A stretch of 44,476 bases of DNA from Escherichia phage vB_EcoD_Pubbukkers. The position numbers were made by a program, and so were the translations under genes. The notes under the pieces were generated by a model. That model did not search any database. It saw only the letters and a program-made list of their open reading frames with translations, and was not told where the DNA came from. Where the stretch lies: the sequence record NC_073068.1; one strand, given 5' to 3'. Each line of letters opens with the position of its first letter. Position 1 is the stretch's first letter. Positions 29,491-34,263 of the stretch are shown in pieces.

Positions 29491-29664
29491 TTATTTTTGT
29501 TCTGCACGGTAGCGGCGCTGCCGTTCGCGCTCTTTCTTATTGCGGCACGATTTGCACTCTGCCCGATACCCGTCTGGACTTCGCGCAGTCTTACCGGTGT
29601 ATTTGTGGAACTGGGACAGCGGCTTGATGCAGCCGCAATTACTACAACGTTTTTCTTCAATCAT
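29491..29664 (-). CDS. small zinc-ribbon protein
   Basis: 57 aa from ATG 29664 (MIEEKRCSNCGC...ECKSCRNK) with two CxxC pairs and RBS AGGA. Confidence 0.45.
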   Translation of the reverse strand: MIEEKRCSNCGCIKPLSQFHKYTGKTARSPDGYRAECKSCRNKKERERQRRYRAEQK

Positions 29665-29704
29665 TTCTAAAATCCTAGGTAGTGCTATCCGGCACACTAT
29701 ACCG

Positions 29705-29983
29705 CTATGCGACCAATTCAGCAACCAATAAATCGCAGTCGGATATGTTGTCGATAACGCGAACGTCAGCACCGCGGCGGGCCATTCGCTCATGTTCACG
29801 TACCTGGTGCGGCTTCGGTTTTCCTCCGGGGCGCTTCACTTCGACGAACACTATTTTGCCGTTGATGATAATAATCAGGTCGGGCGCACCTGCGCGCCCC
29901 TCCCATGCCAGTTTTCGGCAGAATCCGCCTACCTCTTTCACCCGTCGCATCAGGTGACTTTGAATCTTGCCTTCTGGTGTCAT
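29705..29983 (-). CDS. VRR-NUC domain nuclease
   Basis: 92 aa; PD-(D/E)xK-type core DLIIIINGKIVFVEVKRPGGKPKPHQ typical of VRR-NUC; start overlaps the polymerase stop. Confidence 0.7.
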   Translation of the reverse strand: MTPEGKIQSHLMRRVKEVGGFCRKLAWEGRAGAPDLIIIINGKIVFVEVKRPGGKPKPHQVREHERMARRGADVRVIDNISDCDLLVAELVA

Positions 29984-32900
29984 TACTTCCTGTACCTGTA
30001 CATGATGTCGCCTTCAGCGGCAAGCGGGAAGCCTTTCGCCCAAATAGGCAGGTCGCACATCAGCGCGCAAAGCTCCTCGGTCGTGTAGTCGTCGGTGTCC
30101 GGAACTTCGGTGATCAATTCATCGTGCACTGACAGGACGATTTCATATCCGGCAGCTTCAACGCCAGGCATGGACCACGCGAGGATATCGCGGCACAGCG
30201 CCTGTACGATGTTTTCCGTCAGTTTGCCGCCGTAGGTGTACTGGAACCCCCACTGGCGCGTCGTCTGATTCTCGCCCTGATATTTAATGCGGGTGCTGGT
30301 GCGCTTCTTGCCGGTGTCTTCGTCAATCTCGGTCGTGACCGACAGCGCGATGCCGGGGTAACTCATGATGCGCCCCGACGGCAACTCAATTTTCAACCAC
30401 CACCCCGCGGCGTTCGGGTCGTCGCGCTCCTCGTCAAAGGTTGGGTCGTGCTTCGCCTTCGTACGGACAATCTTGAGCGCTTTTCTACCGTCCGGGCGAA
30501 CGGTAGCGCCAGCCCAGTATGCTTTGCCCGGATTGCGTATTGCACACAACACCGCGTCCTCAAGCTCGGCCCAAAAGGCTACCGTCTTCGGGTGCGCCTC
30601 TCGCCACATGCGTTTAATCGCATCACACGTAAGCCATACGTTTTTCGGCAGTATGTAAGTCGGGCGCTCGTCCTTCTTGCCCGGCTTCGGCGGTCGCTTC
30701 GCTTCGTTAATGCGGGCGTACTCATAACCCCGTTTAGCCGCTGCCCAAATGTGATTGGGGAATGTGCCCTTCATGACGTCCGCCATCGCGTAAAGGTCGA
30801 GGCCCAGGTTTTTAGCGAACTGCAAGAACGCCGCGACGCCGCCACCATAGCCCAGGCCAAGCTCGCAGTTATGCGCCACCAGAAAACCAGACTTAGACGC
30901 AATAAGGAACCGGTTTCCGTCTTCCACATCAATCAGGTCGTAAACCGGCTCGCAATAGGTTAACTTCCCGTTCCAGTTCAGCAATGCGGGTAAGGGCTTC
31001 ATCGTACTTTCGCTGAAGCTCGGGCACGCTGCGCCGGTTACGGCAGTTTTCCGAACGGCTGACAAACCGAAGGTTTCCAGGCTCATAGTTGCTGTCTGTA
31101 TCGATCCGGTCCATTTCGAAGTCTGGATTATCCCAGCCGTCCAGCGTTTGAACGTAGAGAAGAAACGACCTTTTATCTCTCTGCCATTCGTCACATACGG
31201 CAATCCCACGACCGCCGTAGTTTTTATACCCTTTGGCGCGGGGGTTTGTCGTTCGTGATATTGCCGCTGACAGCCGGTTGAGCAACCGCGTTCTGTGCGC
31301 ATCGTCTGGCATTGCGTCATCGTAGCAAAAATACTGTTTACGATACCGCTTTGTCGCTTCAATTGCGCAGAGGTTGCATTGGGATGTTTTACCCCTTCGG
31401 ACGTTGTCATACCCGACGCGTCCTGGCATCGCTCCGCAATCACATTGGGCCAGCAGTTGTCTGTGCCCCTGTCGTTTTGGTAATTCGCGCAGGATAACCA
31501 GGCGTCCATACCTCTCGCCAGGGCGCGGGCCATCGTGCACCTGTCTGAAACGAGTTGCCTTGCCTCCTTCCATGAATGCGTCAAGATTTTGTGGTCTTCT
31601 GTCATCAAGACCCCGTCCACGTCTATCACTGGTTTCCACCCCATAAGGTGCGCGCCTTTTGTACTCACCCATTTTTCGCCGTTCCATACTTTATCCGTTG
31701 ATGTTACGGCCATAATATCCTTGAACCCGCCATCGGTCAATACTTGGGTATGGCGGTGCAAGCAAGCCTTCCCTATCTGGCGTAAGTCCTTGCGGTTAGC
31801 TTTAATGTAGTCCGGGTCCAGGCCGAACATCTTACCGGCAGTCTCACAATAGATATCACGACCGGCCTTAAACACCATTAGCGCGGTTTTCTCGCCAGCG
31901 ATCCAGGCAAGTCCACGCCCTTCCACGTTGGAGTAGTCCGCTACGACAAACTTCTTGCCCTTAGCCGGGATAATGCACCCGCGAACGGTCGAGGCTGTTA
32001 GCTTCGATATGTCGTACGCCCAGTGTGCGGTCCCGCGTAGCAGGGAATTGATGCCGTTGGTGAGCATGTGCGACCGGACCCAAAAAGCAACGTCGCTCTC
32101 GCCTTCGCGGCGCTTAATCTTCCCTTCGTGATCGTCGCTATACTCGCCGCGTGCCAGGTTTTGAGGCTGGAAGCCTTTACCGGCCCAGCGTAGCGTGCGC
32201 TTTGCCCCTCCATACTGAAGACAACCTCGGCGGCGACCGTCGGCGGATAGGCCATTAACGAGCGGATTGTACTTAGTCGACGCCGTGGATGACGCACCGA
32301 GGCGCATCTCGATAAGCACTTTGCCCTCGTCGGGGAAGTCTGGATCTTCCAGCAGGTCGTTAAGCGTGGATTTCTGCGCATTGTGGATTGTGAACGCAGG
32401 CGCGAGGTCGCGCAGCGCTGGCAGGAAGTCATTGCCGGTCAGCTTACCGCCGAAGCGCTCCCAGGCTTCTTCCTTCAATTCTTCCTTATGCGCCTGCACC
32501 GCTTTGATCGCGGCGTTCGCCAGGTCAACGTCCACATAGAAGCCGCGGTCATTGATCAACTGGTCGATAAGCAGGATTTCATCTTCCTTCGGGGTATTAC
32601 CCCAGTCCGGTATGCGCCAGTAGACCTCCCGCATCGCGATAATATCCAGCGCGGCATATCGCAGAAATTTGGCCCATTCTTCAGGGTGAGTCTCGCGAGT
32701 GTAGCGGCGGATTTTGTAAGTCTTAGGGGTAGGCTTGCAGAATCGTTTAATCAGCGCCTTGCCTGCCTTATCCTTCGCGTGCTCTGCGTCAACGCCCAGC
32801 ACCTGACACTGCATATCGAGGCTGCCCGGCAGCGCGTGCCGAAAGGCCATAATCATGGTATCTTCGATCTGGCTTACCGGCAGGTCGATTCCCCACTTTT

Positions 32901-33171
32901 CACGGATAACCAGGCGGTCAAACAGGAGGCCGTTAGCCATCACGATTTTTGCTTTCTTGCGGGATACCTGACGGAGCGCCTTGCGCAGTTCACGCGGCAT
33001 TGTTGGTGATTCAGTGGCATCCCATGTCTGCACGCGGCCTTCGTCGATGGCGTAGGTGCAAATCATGATCTCGGTGGTTGGGTGCTCTGCGTAGGCGTAC
33101 GCCCCTACTTTCTTCAGGTCCACCCCGCTAAATGTCTCGGTATCGAGAAACAGGCGTTCAAAGTTTTTCAT
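29983..33171 (-). CDS. DNA polymerase I family (3'-5' exonuclease plus polymerase) interrupted by an intein
   Basis: 1062 aa; Exo I FLDTETFS; motif A VADYSNVEGRGLAW; motif B split as RQIGKA | intein | CELGLGYGGG; motif C VLSVHDELITEV. Intein residues 470-768 carry block A (CLHRHTQVLTDGG), block B (ILTHSW), block F (VYDLIDVEDGNRFLIA) and block G (FLVAHN followed by +1 Cys). Confidence 0.85.
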   Translation of the reverse strand: MKNFERLFLDTETFSGVDLKKVGAYAYAEHPTTEIMICTYAIDEGRVQTWDATESPTMPRELRKALRQVSRKKAKIVMANGLLFDRLVIREKWGIDLPVSQIEDTMIMAFRHALPGSLDMQCQVLGVDAEHAKDKAGKALIKRFCKPTPKTYKIRRYTRETHPEEWAKFLRYAALDIIAMREVYWRIPDWGNTPKEDEILLIDQLINDRGFYVDVDLANAAIKAVQAHKEELKEEAWERFGGKLTGNDFLPALRDLAPAFTIHNAQKSTLNDLLEDPDFPDEGKVLIEMRLGASSTASTKYNPLVNGLSADGRRRGCLQYGGAKRTLRWAGKGFQPQNLARGEYSDDHEGKIKRREGESDVAFWVRSHMLTNGINSLLRGTAHWAYDISKLTASTVRGCIIPAKGKKFVVADYSNVEGRGLAWIAGEKTALMVFKAGRDIYCETAGKMFGLDPDYIKANRKDLRQIGKACLHRHTQVLTDGGFKDIMAVTSTDKVWNGEKWVSTKGAHLMGWKPVIDVDGVLMTEDHKILTHSWKEARQLVSDRCTMARALARGMDAWLSCANYQNDRGTDNCWPNVIAERCQDASGMTTSEGVKHPNATSAQLKRQSGIVNSIFATMTQCQTMRTERGCSTGCQRQYHERQTPAPKGIKTTAVVGLPYVTNGREIKGRFFSTFKRWTAGIIQTSKWTGSIQTATMSLETFGLSAVRKTAVTGAACPSFSESTMKPLPALLNWNGKLTYCEPVYDLIDVEDGNRFLIASKSGFLVAHNCELGLGYGGGVAAFLQFAKNLGLDLYAMADVMKGTFPNHIWAAAKRGYEYARINEAKRPPKPGKKDERPTYILPKNVWLTCDAIKRMWREAHPKTVAFWAELEDAVLCAIRNPGKAYWAGATVRPDGRKALKIVRTKAKHDPTFDEERDDPNAAGWWLKIELPSGRIMSYPGIALSVTTEIDEDTGKKRTSTRIKYQGENQTTRQWGFQYTYGGKLTENIVQALCRDILAWSMPGVEAAGYEIVLSVHDELITEVPDTDDYTTEELCALMCDLPIWAKGFPLAAEGDIMYRYRK
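30868..31764 (-). mobile_element. intein inserted in DNA polymerase motif B
   Basis: 299 codons between extein residues ...RQIGKA and CELGLGYG...; starts with Cys, ends with His-Asn followed by Cys; canonical Hint blocks at both ends; the central ~180 codons show no endonuclease motifs in the polymerase frame. Confidence 0.8.
30929..31687 (-). CDS. HNH homing endonuclease encoded in the -1 frame inside the polymerase intein
   Basis: 252-aa ORF offset by one nucleotide from the polymerase frame; contains GRLVILREL...CDCG...SQCNLC, KGYKNYGGRGIAVCDEW and DRIDTDSNYEPGNLRFVSRSENCRNR (HNH core). Likely true start at Met39 (31573); no strong RBS seen. Confidence 0.6.
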   Translation of the reverse strand: MERRKMGEYKRRAPYGVETSDRRGRGLDDRRPQNLDAFMEGGKATRFRQVHDGPRPGERYGRLVILRELPKRQGHRQLLAQCDCGAMPGRVGYDNVRRGKTSQCNLCAIEATKRYRKQYFCYDDAMPDDAHRTRLLNRLSAAISRTTNPRAKGYKNYGGRGIAVCDEWQRDKRSFLLYVQTLDGWDNPDFEMDRIDTDSNYEPGNLRFVSRSENCRNRRSVPELQRKYDEALTRIAELEREVNLLRAGLRPD

Positions 33172-33396: not shown

Positions 33397-34173
33397 TTAA
33401 CGGCGGCGACGTTTACGTGGCGCTTCGTCTTCGTCGTCGTCCTCATCTTCGTCATCGCGTGGCTTACGACGTTTACGTGGTGCTTCATCTTCGTCGTCGT
33501 CATCGCGGCGCTTGGACTTTTTGGACTTGCGCGGCTTGTCGTCTTCGTCATCGTCATCACGACGTTTTGACTTTTTGGACTTACGCGGGCTTTCGTCTTC
33601 GTCATCGTCGCCCAGGTCTTCGTCGGAACATGAAGACCCGCCACCTCCGAAGGCTTCGCCGTCTTCACGGAATCGCAGACCCAGCAAGCCTGCCCCGAGT
33701 CCCTTGCCGTTGGTATTGTTCCACGCCCAAATATCAAGGGACACGTTGCAATAACAACCGGAGTAGATCTCCTGGCCTTCAATCTCGTCGCCTTCTACGG
33801 TCAGACCTTGTTCAGTCTGCTTCTCGCCGAGTGACGTTTGAATGATAGGCTGTTTGAACGATTTGGCGTTGATATACAACATGCCTTCGAATTCTTCGGT
33901 CACTTCGTCGCGCTCGTCACCGTCGCGGACTGCGCATTCCTTCGAATCCTGGGCGTAGTGGCGGTCCATCCACTTATCGGCATTCTTCTCGGATTTCAGC
34001 TTGTCGGTGAGCACTGCGCGCGCTGCCGCTTCCACTTTGTCCACCTGCGGATCTTCTTTATCCAGAAGAATCACGGCACGGTATGCCGGTTTTTGCCCAT
34101 CCTGTTTAGGGGTATCACGTTCCCAAATTTTAAGGAAGCATACGCGCACATTTTTCAGGTTGACTTTAGCCAT
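33397..34173 (-). CDS. ssDNA-binding protein-like (DUF2815-like N-domain) with alternating acidic/basic repeat tail
   Basis: 258 aa from ATG 34173 (MAKVNLKNVRVCF) with RBS GAGGAA; C-terminal ~80 aa are repeats of D/E-rich blocks followed by PRKSKKSKRR-like blocks, ending RKRRRR; encoded by imperfect tandem DNA repeats. Confidence 0.5.
   Translation of the reverse strand: MAKVNLKNVRVCFLKIWERDTPKQDGQKPAYRAVILLDKEDPQVDKVEAAARAVLTDKLKSEKNADKWMDRHYAQDSKECAVRDGDERDEVTEEFEGMLYINAKSFKQPIIQTSLGEKQTEQGLTVEGDEIEGQEIYSGCYCNVSLDIWAWNNTNGKGLGAGLLGLRFREDGEAFGGGGSSCSDEDLGDDDEDESPRKSKKSKRRDDDDEDDKPRKSKKSKRRDDDDEDEAPRKRRKPRDDEDEDDDEDEAPRKRRRR
33408..33610. repeat. imperfect tandem repeats within the SSB-like gene 3' region
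   Basis: Two ~35-bp units (cgacgtttacgtggYgcttcRtcttcgtcgtcgtc) and two ~45-bp units (ttggactttttggacttRcgcgg...tcgtcttcgtcatcgtc) encoding the charged repeat tail. Confidence 0.6.
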
Positions 34174-34263
34174 TTTCCAATTCCTCATTTTCACATGTAT
34201 CGGGGTTATTGGAAGCCACCCCGTTCGGCTTGGTTGCTAATCTACTTGGTTGCGCCTTAGCGG

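What the first reader, a model, noticed from the sequence alone, without database searches (positions are those of the whole stretch)
30868..31764. DNA polymerase intein with its HNH homing endonuclease encoded in the -1 reading frame
The polymerase ORF (29983..33171, minus) is open through a 299-codon insertion in motif B (RQIGKA | ... | CELGLGYG). The insertion has canonical intein blocks at both ends (CLHRHTQVLTDGG, ILTHSW, VYDLIDVEDGNRFLIA, VAHN followed by Cys), but its central ~180 codons are compositionally odd and motif-free in the polymerase frame. The same DNA in the -1 frame encodes a 252-aa ORF (30929..31687) with a clear HNH homing-endonuclease signature (CDCG...C..C zinc motif, KGYKNYGGRGIAVCDEW, DRIDTDSNYEPGNLRFVSRSENCRNR). 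Inteins normally carry their endonuclease as an in-frame domain, so two long overlapping open frames here suggest either a free-standing endonuclease gene nested out of frame in a mini-intein, expression by frameshifting or internal initiation, or a formerly in-frame domain. I am not aware of this arrangement being described, but cannot search to confirm.
Basis: partly seen in the sequence, partly recalled or inferred. Interest (0 to 1): 0.88.

Follow-up and report, generated by a model that had tools for sequence, protein, structure and literature searches.

The report
Polymerase intein with overprinted homing-endonuclease gene
A self-splicing protein insert (intein) in this phage's DNA polymerase carries its own mobility gene in a different reading frame of the same DNA; the arrangement is real, under selection in both frames, found in hundreds of phages, and of a kind first described only in 2025.

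Summary
The minus-strand PolA gene (29983..33171) carries a precise 897-nt insertion (30868..31764) in motif B. The insertion has class-1 intein residues: Cys1, TxxH, His-Asn, then Cys+1. A 247-aa ORF (30929..31672) lies in the -1 frame. About 160 sequenced phages carry the same element. 68 of 68 more distant viral contigs also have the ORF in the -1 frame of a PolA motif-B intein. Selection switches frame along the element. At the intein ends omega is 0.03-0.07 in the polymerase frame. In the centre omega is 0.10-0.14 in the ORF frame and about 1-1.5 in the polymerase frame, which is nevertheless kept free of stops. Intein-free Dhillonvirus alleles are 97-100% identical to the window's flanks, while intein-bearing relatives share a 99% identical intein in 88-96% identical flanks. 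This indicates recent homing. Free-standing relatives of the ORF sit just downstream of intein-free polA genes. The "HNH" label is only partly met: the catalytic His is an invariant Arg, and Pfam does not recognise the protein. The same architecture was reported in 2025 for actinophage inteins with a different nuclease. This is therefore a new, very widespread member of a recently described kind.

The parts
29983..33171 (-). PolA (family A DNA polymerase) precursor ORF, 1062 aa, containing the intein
   Evidence: ORF. Pfam DNA_pol_A matches aa 393-469 and PHROG DNA polymerase families match both halves. Intein-free Dhillonvirus polymerases align contiguously across the junction.
30868..31764 (-). 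Intein, 897 nt / 299 codons, inserted in motif B after RQIGKA (position K+2), followed by Cys+1 of CELGLGYG
   Evidence: Boundaries. Cys1, TxxH, terminal HN and Cys/Ser+1 are present in 54/54 related inteins. A profile of the splicing ends finds solved inteins as its top PDB matches.
31510..31764 (-). N-terminal splicing region (intein aa 1-85): block A CLHRHTQVLTDGG and block B TEDHKILTHSW
   Evidence: omega is 0.03-0.07 in the polymerase frame for nt 1-90. Variable sites lie at polymerase codon position 3. Aligns to the Neq Pol and Spl DnaX inteins.
31000..31509 (-). Central 170-codon linker in the polymerase frame: the 'shadow' translation of the nested gene, kept open but not conserved as protein
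   Evidence: omega in the polymerase frame is 1.0-1.5, yet there are 0 stops. Pairwise identity is 0.29-0.30 in the polymerase frame against 0.50-0.61 in the nested frame. The AlphaFold model gives pLDDT about 20 and no secondary structure, from a thin alignment.
30868..30999 (-). C-terminal splicing region (intein aa 256-299): blocks F/G VYDLIDVEDGNRFLIA...GFLVAHN
   Evidence: omega is 0.04-0.05 in the polymerase frame for nt 837-897. HN followed by Cys/Ser is conserved in 54/54.
30929..31672 (-). Nested -1-frame gene for a 247-aa homing-endonuclease-like protein (ATG 31672, TGA 30929-30931). The longest ORF form starts at ATG 31687.
   Evidence: ORF. PHROG 374 'HNH endonuclease' E=6.5e-47. 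1714 homologues. omega is 0.10-0.14 in this frame. The AlphaFold model has pLDDT 87. Jersey phages have a stop just upstream, so ATG 31672 is the shared start.
31682..31685 (-). Shine-Dalgarno-like GGAA, 9 nt upstream of ATG 31672, built from the intein's Trp-Asn-Gly codons
   Evidence: Duplex energy with the anti-SD is -3.9 kcal/mol here and -6.0 (GGAG) in Jersey copies. It is -6.4 to -11.5 in many distant lineages at the equivalent ATGs, intein nt offsets 92/98. Function is inferred.
31352..31525 (-). Zn-ribbon / small beta-barrel DNA-binding domain of the nested protein (aa 50-107; CxC...CxxC)
   Evidence: C77, C79, C99 and C102 are invariant. 26/120 homologues match Pfam PF21817, the CapR homology domain, a DNA-binding domain shared by phage homing endonucleases (PMC8096241).
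31040..31120 (-). beta-beta-alpha-metal-like motif of the nested protein (aa 185-211, FEMDRIDTDSNYEPGNLRFVSRSENCR)
30944..31027 (-). C-terminal long helix / coiled coil of the nested protein (aa 216-243), overlapping the approach to intein block F
   Evidence: Helix 216-243 in the model. Homologues give bZIP and coiled-coil Pfam noise hits.
30853..30867 (-). First 15 nt of the C-extein (TGC GAG CTT GGC CTG): synonymous signature shared by intein-bearing alleles
   Evidence: All 3 intein-bearing Dhillonvirus alleles and 3 of the 5 Jerseyvirus alleles listed read GAG CTT GGC. The other two Jerseyvirus alleles (SE2, AG11) read GAA CTG GGC. The 6 intein-free Dhillonvirus alleles read GAA TTG GG(G/A/C).
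31712..31740 (-). sigma-70-like TTGACC-17-TATTAT inside the intein, about 40 nt upstream of the nested ATG (possible internal promoter; weak evidence)
   Evidence: Consensus scan finds 1 site against 0.8 expected by chance. The site is conserved in Dhillon and Jersey copies but lies in amino-acid-constrained sequence.

Best explanation
This is a mobile, composite selfish element in motif B of the phage's family-A DNA polymerase gene. It consists of a class-1 intein whose 'endonuclease slot' is occupied by a separately translated homing-endonuclease gene (HEG), overprinted in the -1 frame. Translation of polA in frame 0 gives a precursor in which two HINT half-domains are joined by about 170 residues. 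The half-domains are about 85 N-terminal and about 45 C-terminal residues. The linker has no sequence constraint other than 'no stop codon'. The intein then splices (Cys1, TxxH, His-Asn, Cys+1) and restores an intact motif B. Independently, ribosomes start at ATG 31672, whose start codon and purine-rich upstream tract are made from the intein's conserved Trp/Asp-Asn/Gly codons. They make a 247-aa protein with four parts: a poorly constrained N-terminal tail, a CapR-type zinc-ribbon DNA-binding domain, a helical region followed by a beta-beta-alpha-metal nuclease-like motif (D188-R189...Y196...N200...N209), and a C-terminal coiled coil. In mixed infections this protein is inferred to cut intein-less polA alleles near motif B, after which recombinational repair copies intein plus HEG into them. 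The element most likely arose when a free-standing HEG that targeted polA, relatives of which still sit just downstream of intein-free polA genes, inserted into a mini-intein. It was then kept out of frame, with every stop purged from the host frame. What is shown: the anatomy, dual-frame selection, stop purging, a precise empty site, horizontal spread, and wide conservation of the same relative frame. What is inferred: splicing, internal initiation, nuclease activity and the target.
For: Anatomy is. It is not an artefact: 161 phage records carry the element, and 68/68 distant IMG/VR loci have the nested ORF always in the host frame -1, with 0 host-frame stops and 6-32 stops in the third frame. 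Five further metagenomic cases are L015, L016, L019, L020 and L107. Intein identity: 54/54 have C1, TxxH, HN and C/S+1, and a profile of 34 splicing-end sequences has solved inteins as its top PDB hits (Neq Pol E=1.4e-4, Spl DnaX E=1.2e-3, Mtu RecA about 0.07-0.17). The insertion is precise relative to 6 intein-free alleles. Selection: variable sites lie at polymerase position 3 at the ends (6/1/12 and 1/0/11) and at nested-frame position 3 in the centre (15/75/34). NG86 omega in the centre is 0.10-0.14 in the nested frame and 1.0-1.5 in the polymerase frame; at the ends it is 0.03-0.07 in the polymerase frame. Across 45 lineages, identity is 0.50-0.61 in the nested frame against 0.29-0.30 in the polymerase frame. 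Stop purging: 0 observed against about 5 expected (p about 1e-4 to 7e-4), while free-standing homologues have 19. Mobility: the window's exteins are 97-100% identical to intein-free JLBYU37 over most of the gene. SO-1 and EP23 share a 98-99% identical intein in 88-96% identical exteins. Against Jerseyvirus the intein is 80-88% identical and the exteins 56-76%. A synonymous flank signature is shared by intein-bearing alleles. About 150 Dhillonvirus genomes lack the intein and 7 carry it. Expression signals: a conserved ATG at intein offsets 77/92/98, with SD-like GGGAYGG/GGAGGAG upstream of the ATGs at offsets 92 and 98. HEG nature: PHROG HNH families, the CapR homology domain, a confident model with a beta-beta-alpha motif, BFVD neighbours named HNH or homing endonucleases, and free-standing relatives next to polA (L017, L106).
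Confidence: 0.8

Rival explanations
1. The nested protein is no longer a nuclease. It is a DNA-binding protein derived from a homing endonuclease, acting as a regulator or a helper, and the element's spread depends on another nuclease or on ordinary recombination.
For: The catalytic His of HNH is replaced by Arg in all 120 aligned homologues. There is no Pfam HNH hit in any member. Its zinc-ribbon domain is the one found in CapR, a domesticated endonuclease that acts purely as a repressor. Structural matches to nucleases are weak.
Against: D188, N200 and N209, the metal-site positions of the beta-beta-alpha motif, together with Y196, are invariant across lineages. That would be unexpected for a dead active site. 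PacI, the best structural nuclease match, is an active enzyme in which the His base is replaced by Tyr. The element shows the hallmarks of recent homing. Free-standing relatives sit next to their presumed target gene, as active HEGs do.
Confidence: 0.1
2. The nested frame is reached by programmed -1 ribosomal frameshifting from the polymerase frame. This would yield an N-extein/N-intein/endonuclease fusion rather than an independently initiated protein.
For: In the window and in Jersey copies the frame junction reads GGC GAA AAA TGG. A Lys-tRNA on AAA could re-pair in the -1 frame, and the next -1 codon is the ATG.
Against: There is no canonical X XXY YYZ heptamer. The A-run is absent in most other lineages, which have for example GGC CAA TCA TGG or GGT GTT GAA TGG, whereas an ATG at fixed offsets with an SD-like tract is conserved. 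Jersey copies place a stop immediately upstream of the ATG in the -1 frame, which defines a discrete ORF. Free-standing homologues start at an equivalent N-terminus with their own SD.
Confidence: 0.05
3. The nested ORF is a decaying relic of a past invasion and the two open frames are a transient accident.
For: The homing-cycle model predicts endonuclease decay after fixation. The intein appears near-fixed in Jerseyvirus.
Against: omega is 0.10-0.14 in the nested frame. The ORF is intact in 68/68 divergent loci, with 40-55% identity and invariant motif residues. There has been recent spread among Dhillonvirus.
Confidence: 0.03
4. The insertion is not an intein. It is either a group I intron with an intron ORF, as the SO-1 GenBank note says, or a non-splicing insertion tolerated in the polymerase, like the ShiLan element in a methylase.
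For: The SO-1 annotation calls it a 'type I self-splicing intron'. Pfam and NCBIfam intein models do not match. A non-splicing out-of-frame HNH insertion exists in actinophage methylases (PMC11855218).
Against: No Rfam intron match at E<=1. The host frame is kept open in every copy. Purifying selection acts on the polymerase frame at both ends, and the catalytic residues C1, TxxH, HN and C+1 are invariant. The profile matches solved inteins. The insertion splits the essential motif B of an essential enzyme.
Confidence: 0.02
5. Sequencing or assembly error: two compensating indels hide an ordinary in-frame HNH intein.
For: One old record (SS3e) has indels here and an annotated chimeric 'HNH endonuclease' that starts in the polymerase frame and continues in the nested frame.
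Against: About 160 independently sequenced phages have the identical 897-nt arrangement. More than 70 divergent metagenomic copies keep the same relative frame. The codon-position pattern switches frame without any indel.
Confidence: 0.01

Closest known systems
[quoted passage not shown]
   Same: The architecture is the same. The endonuclease ORF lies on the same strand between the splicing blocks, in 'frame 3' of the intein, which is the -1 frame. The in-frame translation of that stretch has no recognisable fold. The endonuclease has free-standing relatives. The proposed origin is invasion of an intein by a free-standing HEG.
   Different: The nuclease family differs: theirs is EndoVII-like with its core at residues 1-67, whereas this one has a CapR-type Zn ribbon plus a C-terminal beta-beta-alpha motif with Arg in place of His. 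The host genes named in that survey do not include a family-A DNA polymerase; its polymerase entry is the Pol III alpha subunit. The hosts also differ: actinophages there, enterobacterial and environmental phages here. This family is far larger (329 IMG/VR relatives, 1714 protein homologues) and occupies three positions in one motif.
Fractured genes: split inteins with a free-standing HEG between the two gene halves (Dassa et al. 2009, PMC2677866)
   Same: An intein is associated with a separately translated endonuclease gene located where the endonuclease domain would be. Both support the 'HEG invades intein' model.
   Different: Here the host gene is not split. The host frame reads through the HEG, so the intein splices in cis and the two genes overlap for about 740 nt.
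ShiLan element: out-of-frame HNH gene inserted in a phage DNA methylase (Arsenault et al. 2025, PMC11855218)
   Same: A hidden endonuclease ORF lies in an alternative frame of an insertion that keeps the host frame open. It has a homing-like distribution, and how it is translated is an open question.
   Different: ShiLan has no splicing domain and is thought to remain in a non-essential protein. Here the insertion is flanked by a complete set of intein catalytic residues and interrupts an essential motif.
[quoted passage not shown]
   Same: Same life style (splicing plus homing) and the same position of the endonuclease-coding DNA between blocks B and F.
   Different: In those the endonuclease is part of the intein polypeptide or is encoded on the opposite strand. 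Here it is a separate polypeptide from the -1 frame of the same strand.
Free-standing phage HEGs next to their target gene (intronless / collaborative homing, e.g. T4 seg/mob genes; recalled from established literature)
   Same: Relatives of the nested protein (L017, L106) sit immediately downstream of intein-free polA genes, as such HEGs do.
   Different: The window's copy lies inside the target gene and depends on protein splicing to be harmless.

Membership tests
Class 1 intein | In-frame insertion at a conserved site of a host protein, absent from close homologues | tested here: met
   A precise 897-nt insertion in PolA motif B. Six intein-free Dhillonvirus alleles align contiguously across the site.
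Class 1 intein | Catalytic residues: Cys/Ser1 (block A), TxxH (block B), penultimate His and terminal Asn (block G), Cys/Ser/Thr at +1 | tested here: met
   C1, T55-E-D-H58 and H298-N299 followed by Cys in the window. All are present in 54/54 related inteins. Note that C1 and HN were also used to find the boundaries; TxxH was not.
Class 1 intein | Homology to known HINT domains, or a HINT fold | tested here: inconclusive
   Pfam, NCBIfam and single-sequence PDB searches are negative. A profile of 34 splicing-end sequences has solved inteins as its best PDB hits, with E=1.4e-4 and 1.2e-3. The AlphaFold model is of too low confidence to use.
Class 1 intein | Protein splicing activity | not testable with these tools
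   Inferred from the viability of about 160 isolated phages with an interrupted essential motif, and from purifying selection on the splicing blocks.
HNH (beta-beta-alpha-metal) endonuclease | General-base His at the end of strand 1 (the first H of H-N-H) | tested here: not met
   The position is Arg189, invariant in 120 sequences (D188-R189). PacI shows that active enzymes of this fold can lack the His, but the canonical feature is absent.
HNH (beta-beta-alpha-metal) endonuclease | Structural Asn in the loop and a metal-ligand Asn/His in the helix, with an Asp before the base | tested here: met
   D188, N200 and N209 are invariant.
HNH (beta-beta-alpha-metal) endonuclease | beta-beta-alpha fold, or a match to curated HNH models | tested here: inconclusive
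HNH (beta-beta-alpha-metal) endonuclease | Metal-dependent DNA cleavage | not testable with these tools
   No biochemical data were found.
Homing endonuclease gene (functional definition) | Sporadic distribution, with the element more similar between genomes than its flanks | tested here: met
   7 of about 160 Dhillonvirus genomes carry it. The intein is 98-99% identical against 88-96% for the flanks. The closest extein relative lacks it.
Homing endonuclease gene (functional definition) | Co-conversion or immunity changes next to the insertion site | tested here: met
   The synonymous GAG CTT GGC is shared by the 3 intein-bearing Dhillonvirus alleles and 3 of the 5 Jerseyvirus alleles listed; SE2 and AG11 read GAA CTG GGC. 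The 6 empty alleles read GAA TTG GGN. The sample is small.
Homing endonuclease gene (functional definition) | Cleavage of the empty allele and super-Mendelian inheritance | not testable with these tools
   Needs enzyme assays and phage crosses.
Intein with out-of-frame, same-strand HEG (Gosselin et al. 2025) | A complete endonuclease ORF between the splicing blocks, on the same strand, in another frame, with the host frame open through it | tested here: met
Intein with out-of-frame, same-strand HEG (Gosselin et al. 2025) | Purifying selection on the endonuclease in its own frame, and free-standing relatives | tested here: met
   omega is 0.10-0.14. Free-standing relatives are L017 and L106.
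Fractured gene / naturally split intein (Dassa et al. 2009) | Host gene split into two ORFs, each ending or starting with an intein half | tested here: not met
   A single uninterrupted 1062-aa ORF in the window, and uninterrupted host frames in 68/68 related loci.
Group I intron with intron-encoded endonuclease | Conserved intron RNA structure; the exon frame need not be open | tested here: not met
   No Rfam match at E<=1. The host frame is always open and under protein-level selection at both ends.

The most novel reading that the evidence does not exclude
The out-of-frame state is not a short-lived intermediate on the way to a canonical in-frame intein-endonuclease. It is an ancient, evolutionarily stable and co-adapted symbiosis. 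One family of PolA motif-B inteins, spread over hundreds of phage lineages and three insertion positions (K+2, K+3, K+6), has kept its endonuclease gene in the same -1 frame throughout. The endonuclease's start codon and ribosome-binding tract are built from the intein's own conserved Trp/Asp/Gly/Glu codons, and its nuclease motif has an Arg where HNH enzymes have their catalytic His. If so, this would be the largest natural system of gene overprinting between two selfish elements. It would also be a directly testable model for how inteins acquired endonucleases.
Probability: 0.45. Interest if true: 0.75.

Novelty: new member of a known kind. Interest (0 to 1): 0.6.

Why it matters
How inteins came to carry homing endonucleases is a long-standing question, framed as 'splicing first, then invasion by a free-standing HEG'. 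Until 2025 the evidence was split inteins with a HEG between the halves and a few antisense cases. This locus belongs to a very large natural family. In that family the proposed precursor state (a free-standing HEG beside polA) and the nested state (a HEG overprinted in an intact, cis-splicing intein) both exist and can be compared base by base. The host phages are easy to grow and to cross: E. coli Dhillonvirus and Salmonella Jerseyvirus, with natural intein-free partners that are 97-100% identical in the flanks. The model can therefore be tested by experiment. The locus is also a clean example of about 740 nt of dual coding in which one frame is selected only to stay open. This is useful for annotating phage genomes, where the nested gene is usually missed or the polymerase is mis-split. 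It is also useful for engineering inteins with long unstructured inserts. Finally, it points to a widespread beta-beta-alpha nuclease variant that lacks the canonical histidine.

Tried and rejected
Curated profile libraries. Pfam and NCBIfam gave no hit for the intein in the polymerase frame. They gave no HNH hit for the nested protein or for any of its 119 aligned homologues.

Single-sequence search of the intein against PDB found nothing.

Comparison with the Npu DnaE intein. These results are not used as evidence.

AlphaFold of the 299-aa intein with a 10-row alignment gave pLDDT 33, so no fold search was run on it.

Fold searches of the nested-protein model. Foldseek against PDB found nothing with E<0.1. 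The afdb50 library was not available.

The search for homologous proteins with the intein, first alone and then as a 4-sequence profile, returned only 5 and 10 proteins. Full-length phage polymerases seem under-represented in that index.

Contig L108 (P0129) was examined as a possible split-intein relative. It looks chimeric and was set aside.

Programmed frameshifting was considered and rejected for lack of a conserved slippery site.

A group I intron was rejected by the Rfam search and by the open, selected host frame.

Eight literature searches found no paper describing this particular PolA intein's nested ORF. Subscription journals and InBase could not be searched, so an earlier description cannot be excluded.
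Full report
1. What is in the sequence

The minus strand carries a 1062-aa ORF (29983..33171). Its two ends match family-A DNA polymerases (Pfam DNA_pol_A; PHROG polymerase families). Between RQIGKA and CELGLGYG, which is motif B, lie exactly 299 extra codons (30868..31764). Over these 897 nt the polymerase frame has no stop and the third frame has 24. The frame displaced by 2 nt (the -1 frame) is open for 252 codons (30929..31687).

2. It is not an artefact

blastn against phage genomes finds the element in 161 records. Seven are Dhillonvirus (95-99% identity; Sodalis phage SO-1, Shigella phage EP23 and others). About 150 are Salmonella Jerseyvirus (82-84%). In the rows listed the match is exactly 897 nt without gaps, except in the old SS3e record. 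In ten fetched copies the polymerase frame has 0 stops, the third frame 24-31, and the nested frame stays open. RefSeq already annotates the nested CDS in SO-1 (gp39, 'HNH endonuclease'), with a note calling it a group I intron. Jerseyvirus records call the host gene an 'intein-containing DNA polymerase precursor'.

3. Which frame is read where

Among 11 copies, variable sites at the two ends of the insertion fall on polymerase codon position 3. Counts by polymerase position 1/2/3 are 6/1/12 for nt 1-92 and 1/0/11 for nt 837-897. In the centre (nt 258-716) the counts are 15/75/34, so variation falls on polymerase position 2, which is position 3 of the nested frame.

Nei-Gojobori estimates between the window and three Jersey copies agree:
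- Intein ends: omega 0.03-0.07 in the polymerase frame.
- Centre: omega 0.10-0.14 in the nested frame and 1.0-1.5 in the polymerase frame.
- Two transition zones: intermediate values in both frames with lowered dS, as expected for true dual coding.

Across 45 divergent copies, mean pairwise amino-acid identity in the centre is 0.50-0.61 in the nested frame and 0.29-0.30 in the polymerase frame. Over the first 45 nested codons the polymerase frame is the better conserved (0.45 against 0.30).

The centre of the polymerase frame is therefore not selected as protein, yet it never has a stop. Shuffling synonymous codons of the nested ORF gives about 5 stops in the polymerase frame, and only 0.01-0.07% of shuffles have none. 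Free-standing homologues have 19 stops in that frame. The host frame is under selection only to stay open.

4. The insertion is an intein

Six intein-free Dhillonvirus polymerases align without a gap across the junction, and they already have the Cys that becomes +1. The insertion starts with Cys, has TEDH (block B, TxxH), and ends in His-Asn before that Cys. The same set of residues is present in 54 of 54 related insertions.

Curated intein models do not match, nor does the single sequence against PDB. A profile built from the first 82 and last 40 residues of 34 family members does better. Its best PDB hits are all inteins: Nanoarchaeum Pol split intein E=1.4e-4, Spl DnaX mini-intein E=1.2e-3 over nearly the full profile, then Mtu RecA mini-inteins.

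No Rfam intron model matches. An AlphaFold model of the whole intein was of low confidence (pLDDT 33). Its central 150 residues had pLDDT about 20 and no secondary structure. That fits an unstructured linker, but the alignment was thin, so I do not lean on it. Splicing itself is inferred from the interruption of an essential motif in about 160 viable, cultured phages.

5. The nested gene

The start shared by all close copies is ATG 31672. Jersey copies have a stop just upstream, which gives 247 aa.

The protein matches PHROG families annotated as HNH endonucleases (E=6.5e-47). It has 1714 homologues in the large protein collection.

An AlphaFold model from 120 homologues is confident (pLDDT 87) and shows these parts:
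- residues 1-21 disordered, and low confidence up to about residue 45;
- a small beta domain with the invariant CxC...CxxC;
- helices;
- a strand-strand-helix motif at 185-211;
- a long C-terminal helix.

26 of the 120 homologues match Pfam's CapR homology domain over the zinc-ribbon region. This is a DNA-binding domain shared by phage homing endonucleases and by the domesticated repressor CapR (PMC8096241).

I therefore call it a homing-endonuclease-like protein with a non-canonical beta-beta-alpha motif, not a verified HNH enzyme.

6. Evidence that the element moves

The window's exteins are 97-100% identical to intein-free phage JLBYU37 over most of the gene. SO-1 and EP23 carry a 98-99% identical intein, yet their exteins are only 88-96% identical. 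Against a Jerseyvirus the intein is 80-88% identical and the exteins 56-76%. Only 7 of roughly 160 Dhillonvirus genomes carry the intein.

Immediately 3' of the insertion, the three intein-bearing Dhillonvirus alleles read GAG CTT GGC. Three of the five Jerseyvirus intein-bearing alleles examined read the same; the other two (SE2, AG11) read GAA CTG GGC. Six empty Dhillonvirus alleles read GAA TTG GG(G/A/C). All these differences are synonymous. This is what a short co-conversion tract, or immunity changes at a cleavage site, would look like.

7. How wide the family is

Searching IMG/VR with the homologue alignment gave 329 relatives. The best 80 loci were kept, and 68 of these lie outside the Dhillon/Jersey groups (40-55% identity). 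In all 68 the ORF lies inside a 600-1126-aa open frame that is always the ORF's +1 frame. That host frame has 0 stops, against 6-32 in the third frame. Wherever the N-terminal junction could be parsed, the host is PolA motif B. The inteins are 277-299 aa and are inserted at K+6 (44 loci), K+2 (7 loci, plus the window's group) or K+3 (2 loci) after the motif's Lys.

Five further metagenomic contigs show the same arrangement (L015, L016, L019, L020, L107). Two relatives are free-standing genes immediately downstream of intein-free polA genes that lack the Cys at these positions (L017, L106). The nested, -1-frame state is thus old and stable, and a plausible precursor state still exists.

8. How the nested gene is probably expressed

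Its ATG falls at fixed offsets in the intein (nt 77, 92 or 98). It is created by an xxA-TGG (Trp) or GT-ATG-C codon pair of the conserved WDGxxWV segment. At offsets 92 and 98 it is preceded at 6-10 nt by GGGAYGG or GGAGGAG, with duplex energies to the anti-SD of -6.4 to -11.5 kcal/mol. The window has the weaker GGAA (-3.9) and Jersey copies have GGAG (-6.0).

There is no conserved slippery heptamer. The A-run at the junction in the window is absent in most lineages. Internal initiation is therefore the best-supported route, but it remains an inference. A sigma-70-like TTGACC-17-TATTAT lies about 40 nt upstream of the ATG and is conserved in the close copies. One such match is expected by chance, and the sequence is also constrained by the intein protein.

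9. Comparison with what is known

The closest description is the 2025 preprint on actinophage inteins (10.1101/2025.01.02.630785). It reports an endonuclease VII-like gene 'in frame 3 relative to the intein', along with antisense LAGLIDADG and VSR-like genes. It proposes invasion of inteins by free-standing HEGs. The present element has that architecture but a different nuclease family, host gene and phage group, and it is far more numerous.

It differs from the 'fractured genes' of Dassa et al. 2009 because the host gene is not split. It differs from the ShiLan out-of-frame HNH insertion (PMC11855218) because it has a complete set of splicing residues.

Eight literature searches found no paper on this PolA intein's nested ORF. 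Subscription literature and InBase were not searchable.

10. Verdict

The finding is real and robust. The 'canonical HNH' label and the claim that the arrangement is undescribed need correcting. I rate it a new and unusually widespread member of a recently described kind, with an interest score of 0.6. It offers experimentally tractable phage pairs for testing how inteins and homing endonucleases became associated.

Noticed in passing
window 29983..30000 region (just downstream of polA), compared with L001 4518-5182 and L018 3391-3582: The short interval between polA and the VRR-NUC gene (29705..29983) is polymorphic. SO-1 has an extra 603-nt gene here (gp37, 'putative HNH endonuclease'). JLBYU37 has an extra 192-nt ORF. 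The window has neither. This looks like a second hot spot for free-standing mobile genes next to polA.
   Followed up: partly
window 33397..34194 (-): The Gp2.5-like ssDNA-binding protein ends in a repetitive acidic/basic tail. DDDEDE...PRK(S/R)KKSKRRDDDDED units are repeated several times, and the opposite strand and other frames also show long open repeats.
   Followed up: no
window 29491..29799 (-): A 102-aa ORF overlapping the VRR-NUC gene's 3' end. It has CSNC...CKSC cysteine pairs and a basic tail (RNKKERERQRRYRAEQK). It may be a small zinc-finger protein; it was not examined.
   Followed up: no
window 31712..31740 (-): A sigma-70-like TTGACC-17-TATTAT lies inside the intein's N-terminal coding region, about 40 nt upstream of the nested gene's ATG. 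It is conserved in Dhillon and Jersey copies. One such match is expected by chance, so its function is unknown.
   Followed up: partly
L031-L100 (IMG/VR loci), motif B of PolA: Related inteins occupy three positions within one motif: 2, 3 or 6 residues after the conserved Lys. Each sits before a Cys (once a Ser), and all have the nested ORF in the -1 frame. This suggests either repeated invasions or a shift of the insertion site.
   Followed up: partly
L012 / L033 (Salmonella phage SS3e, AY730274.2) and protein P0007: This old record is 899 rather than 897 nt here and has frame breaks. As a result an annotated 268-aa 'HNH endonuclease' starts in the polymerase frame and continues in the nested frame. 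It is probably a set of sequence errors, but it mimics an in-frame N-intein/endonuclease fusion.
   Followed up: partly
one search hit list (proteins P0002-P0120): Most metagenomic homologues sit on contigs of about 900-1100 nt, close to the size of the intein. This may be because intein presence/absence polymorphism breaks assemblies at the intein borders. That would be an indirect sign of polymorphic populations.
   Followed up: no
L002 5587-6399 (Salmonella phage PIZ SAE-01E2): The Jerseyvirus helicase downstream of polA is annotated as a second intein-containing precursor. I did not check whether that intein also hides an out-of-frame ORF.
   Followed up: no
L108 (JGI 3300042944 contig, protein P0129): Both the polymerase frame and the nested frame break at the same point and run into AT-rich unrelated sequence. 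The contig is probably chimeric rather than a split-intein variant.
   Followed up: partly
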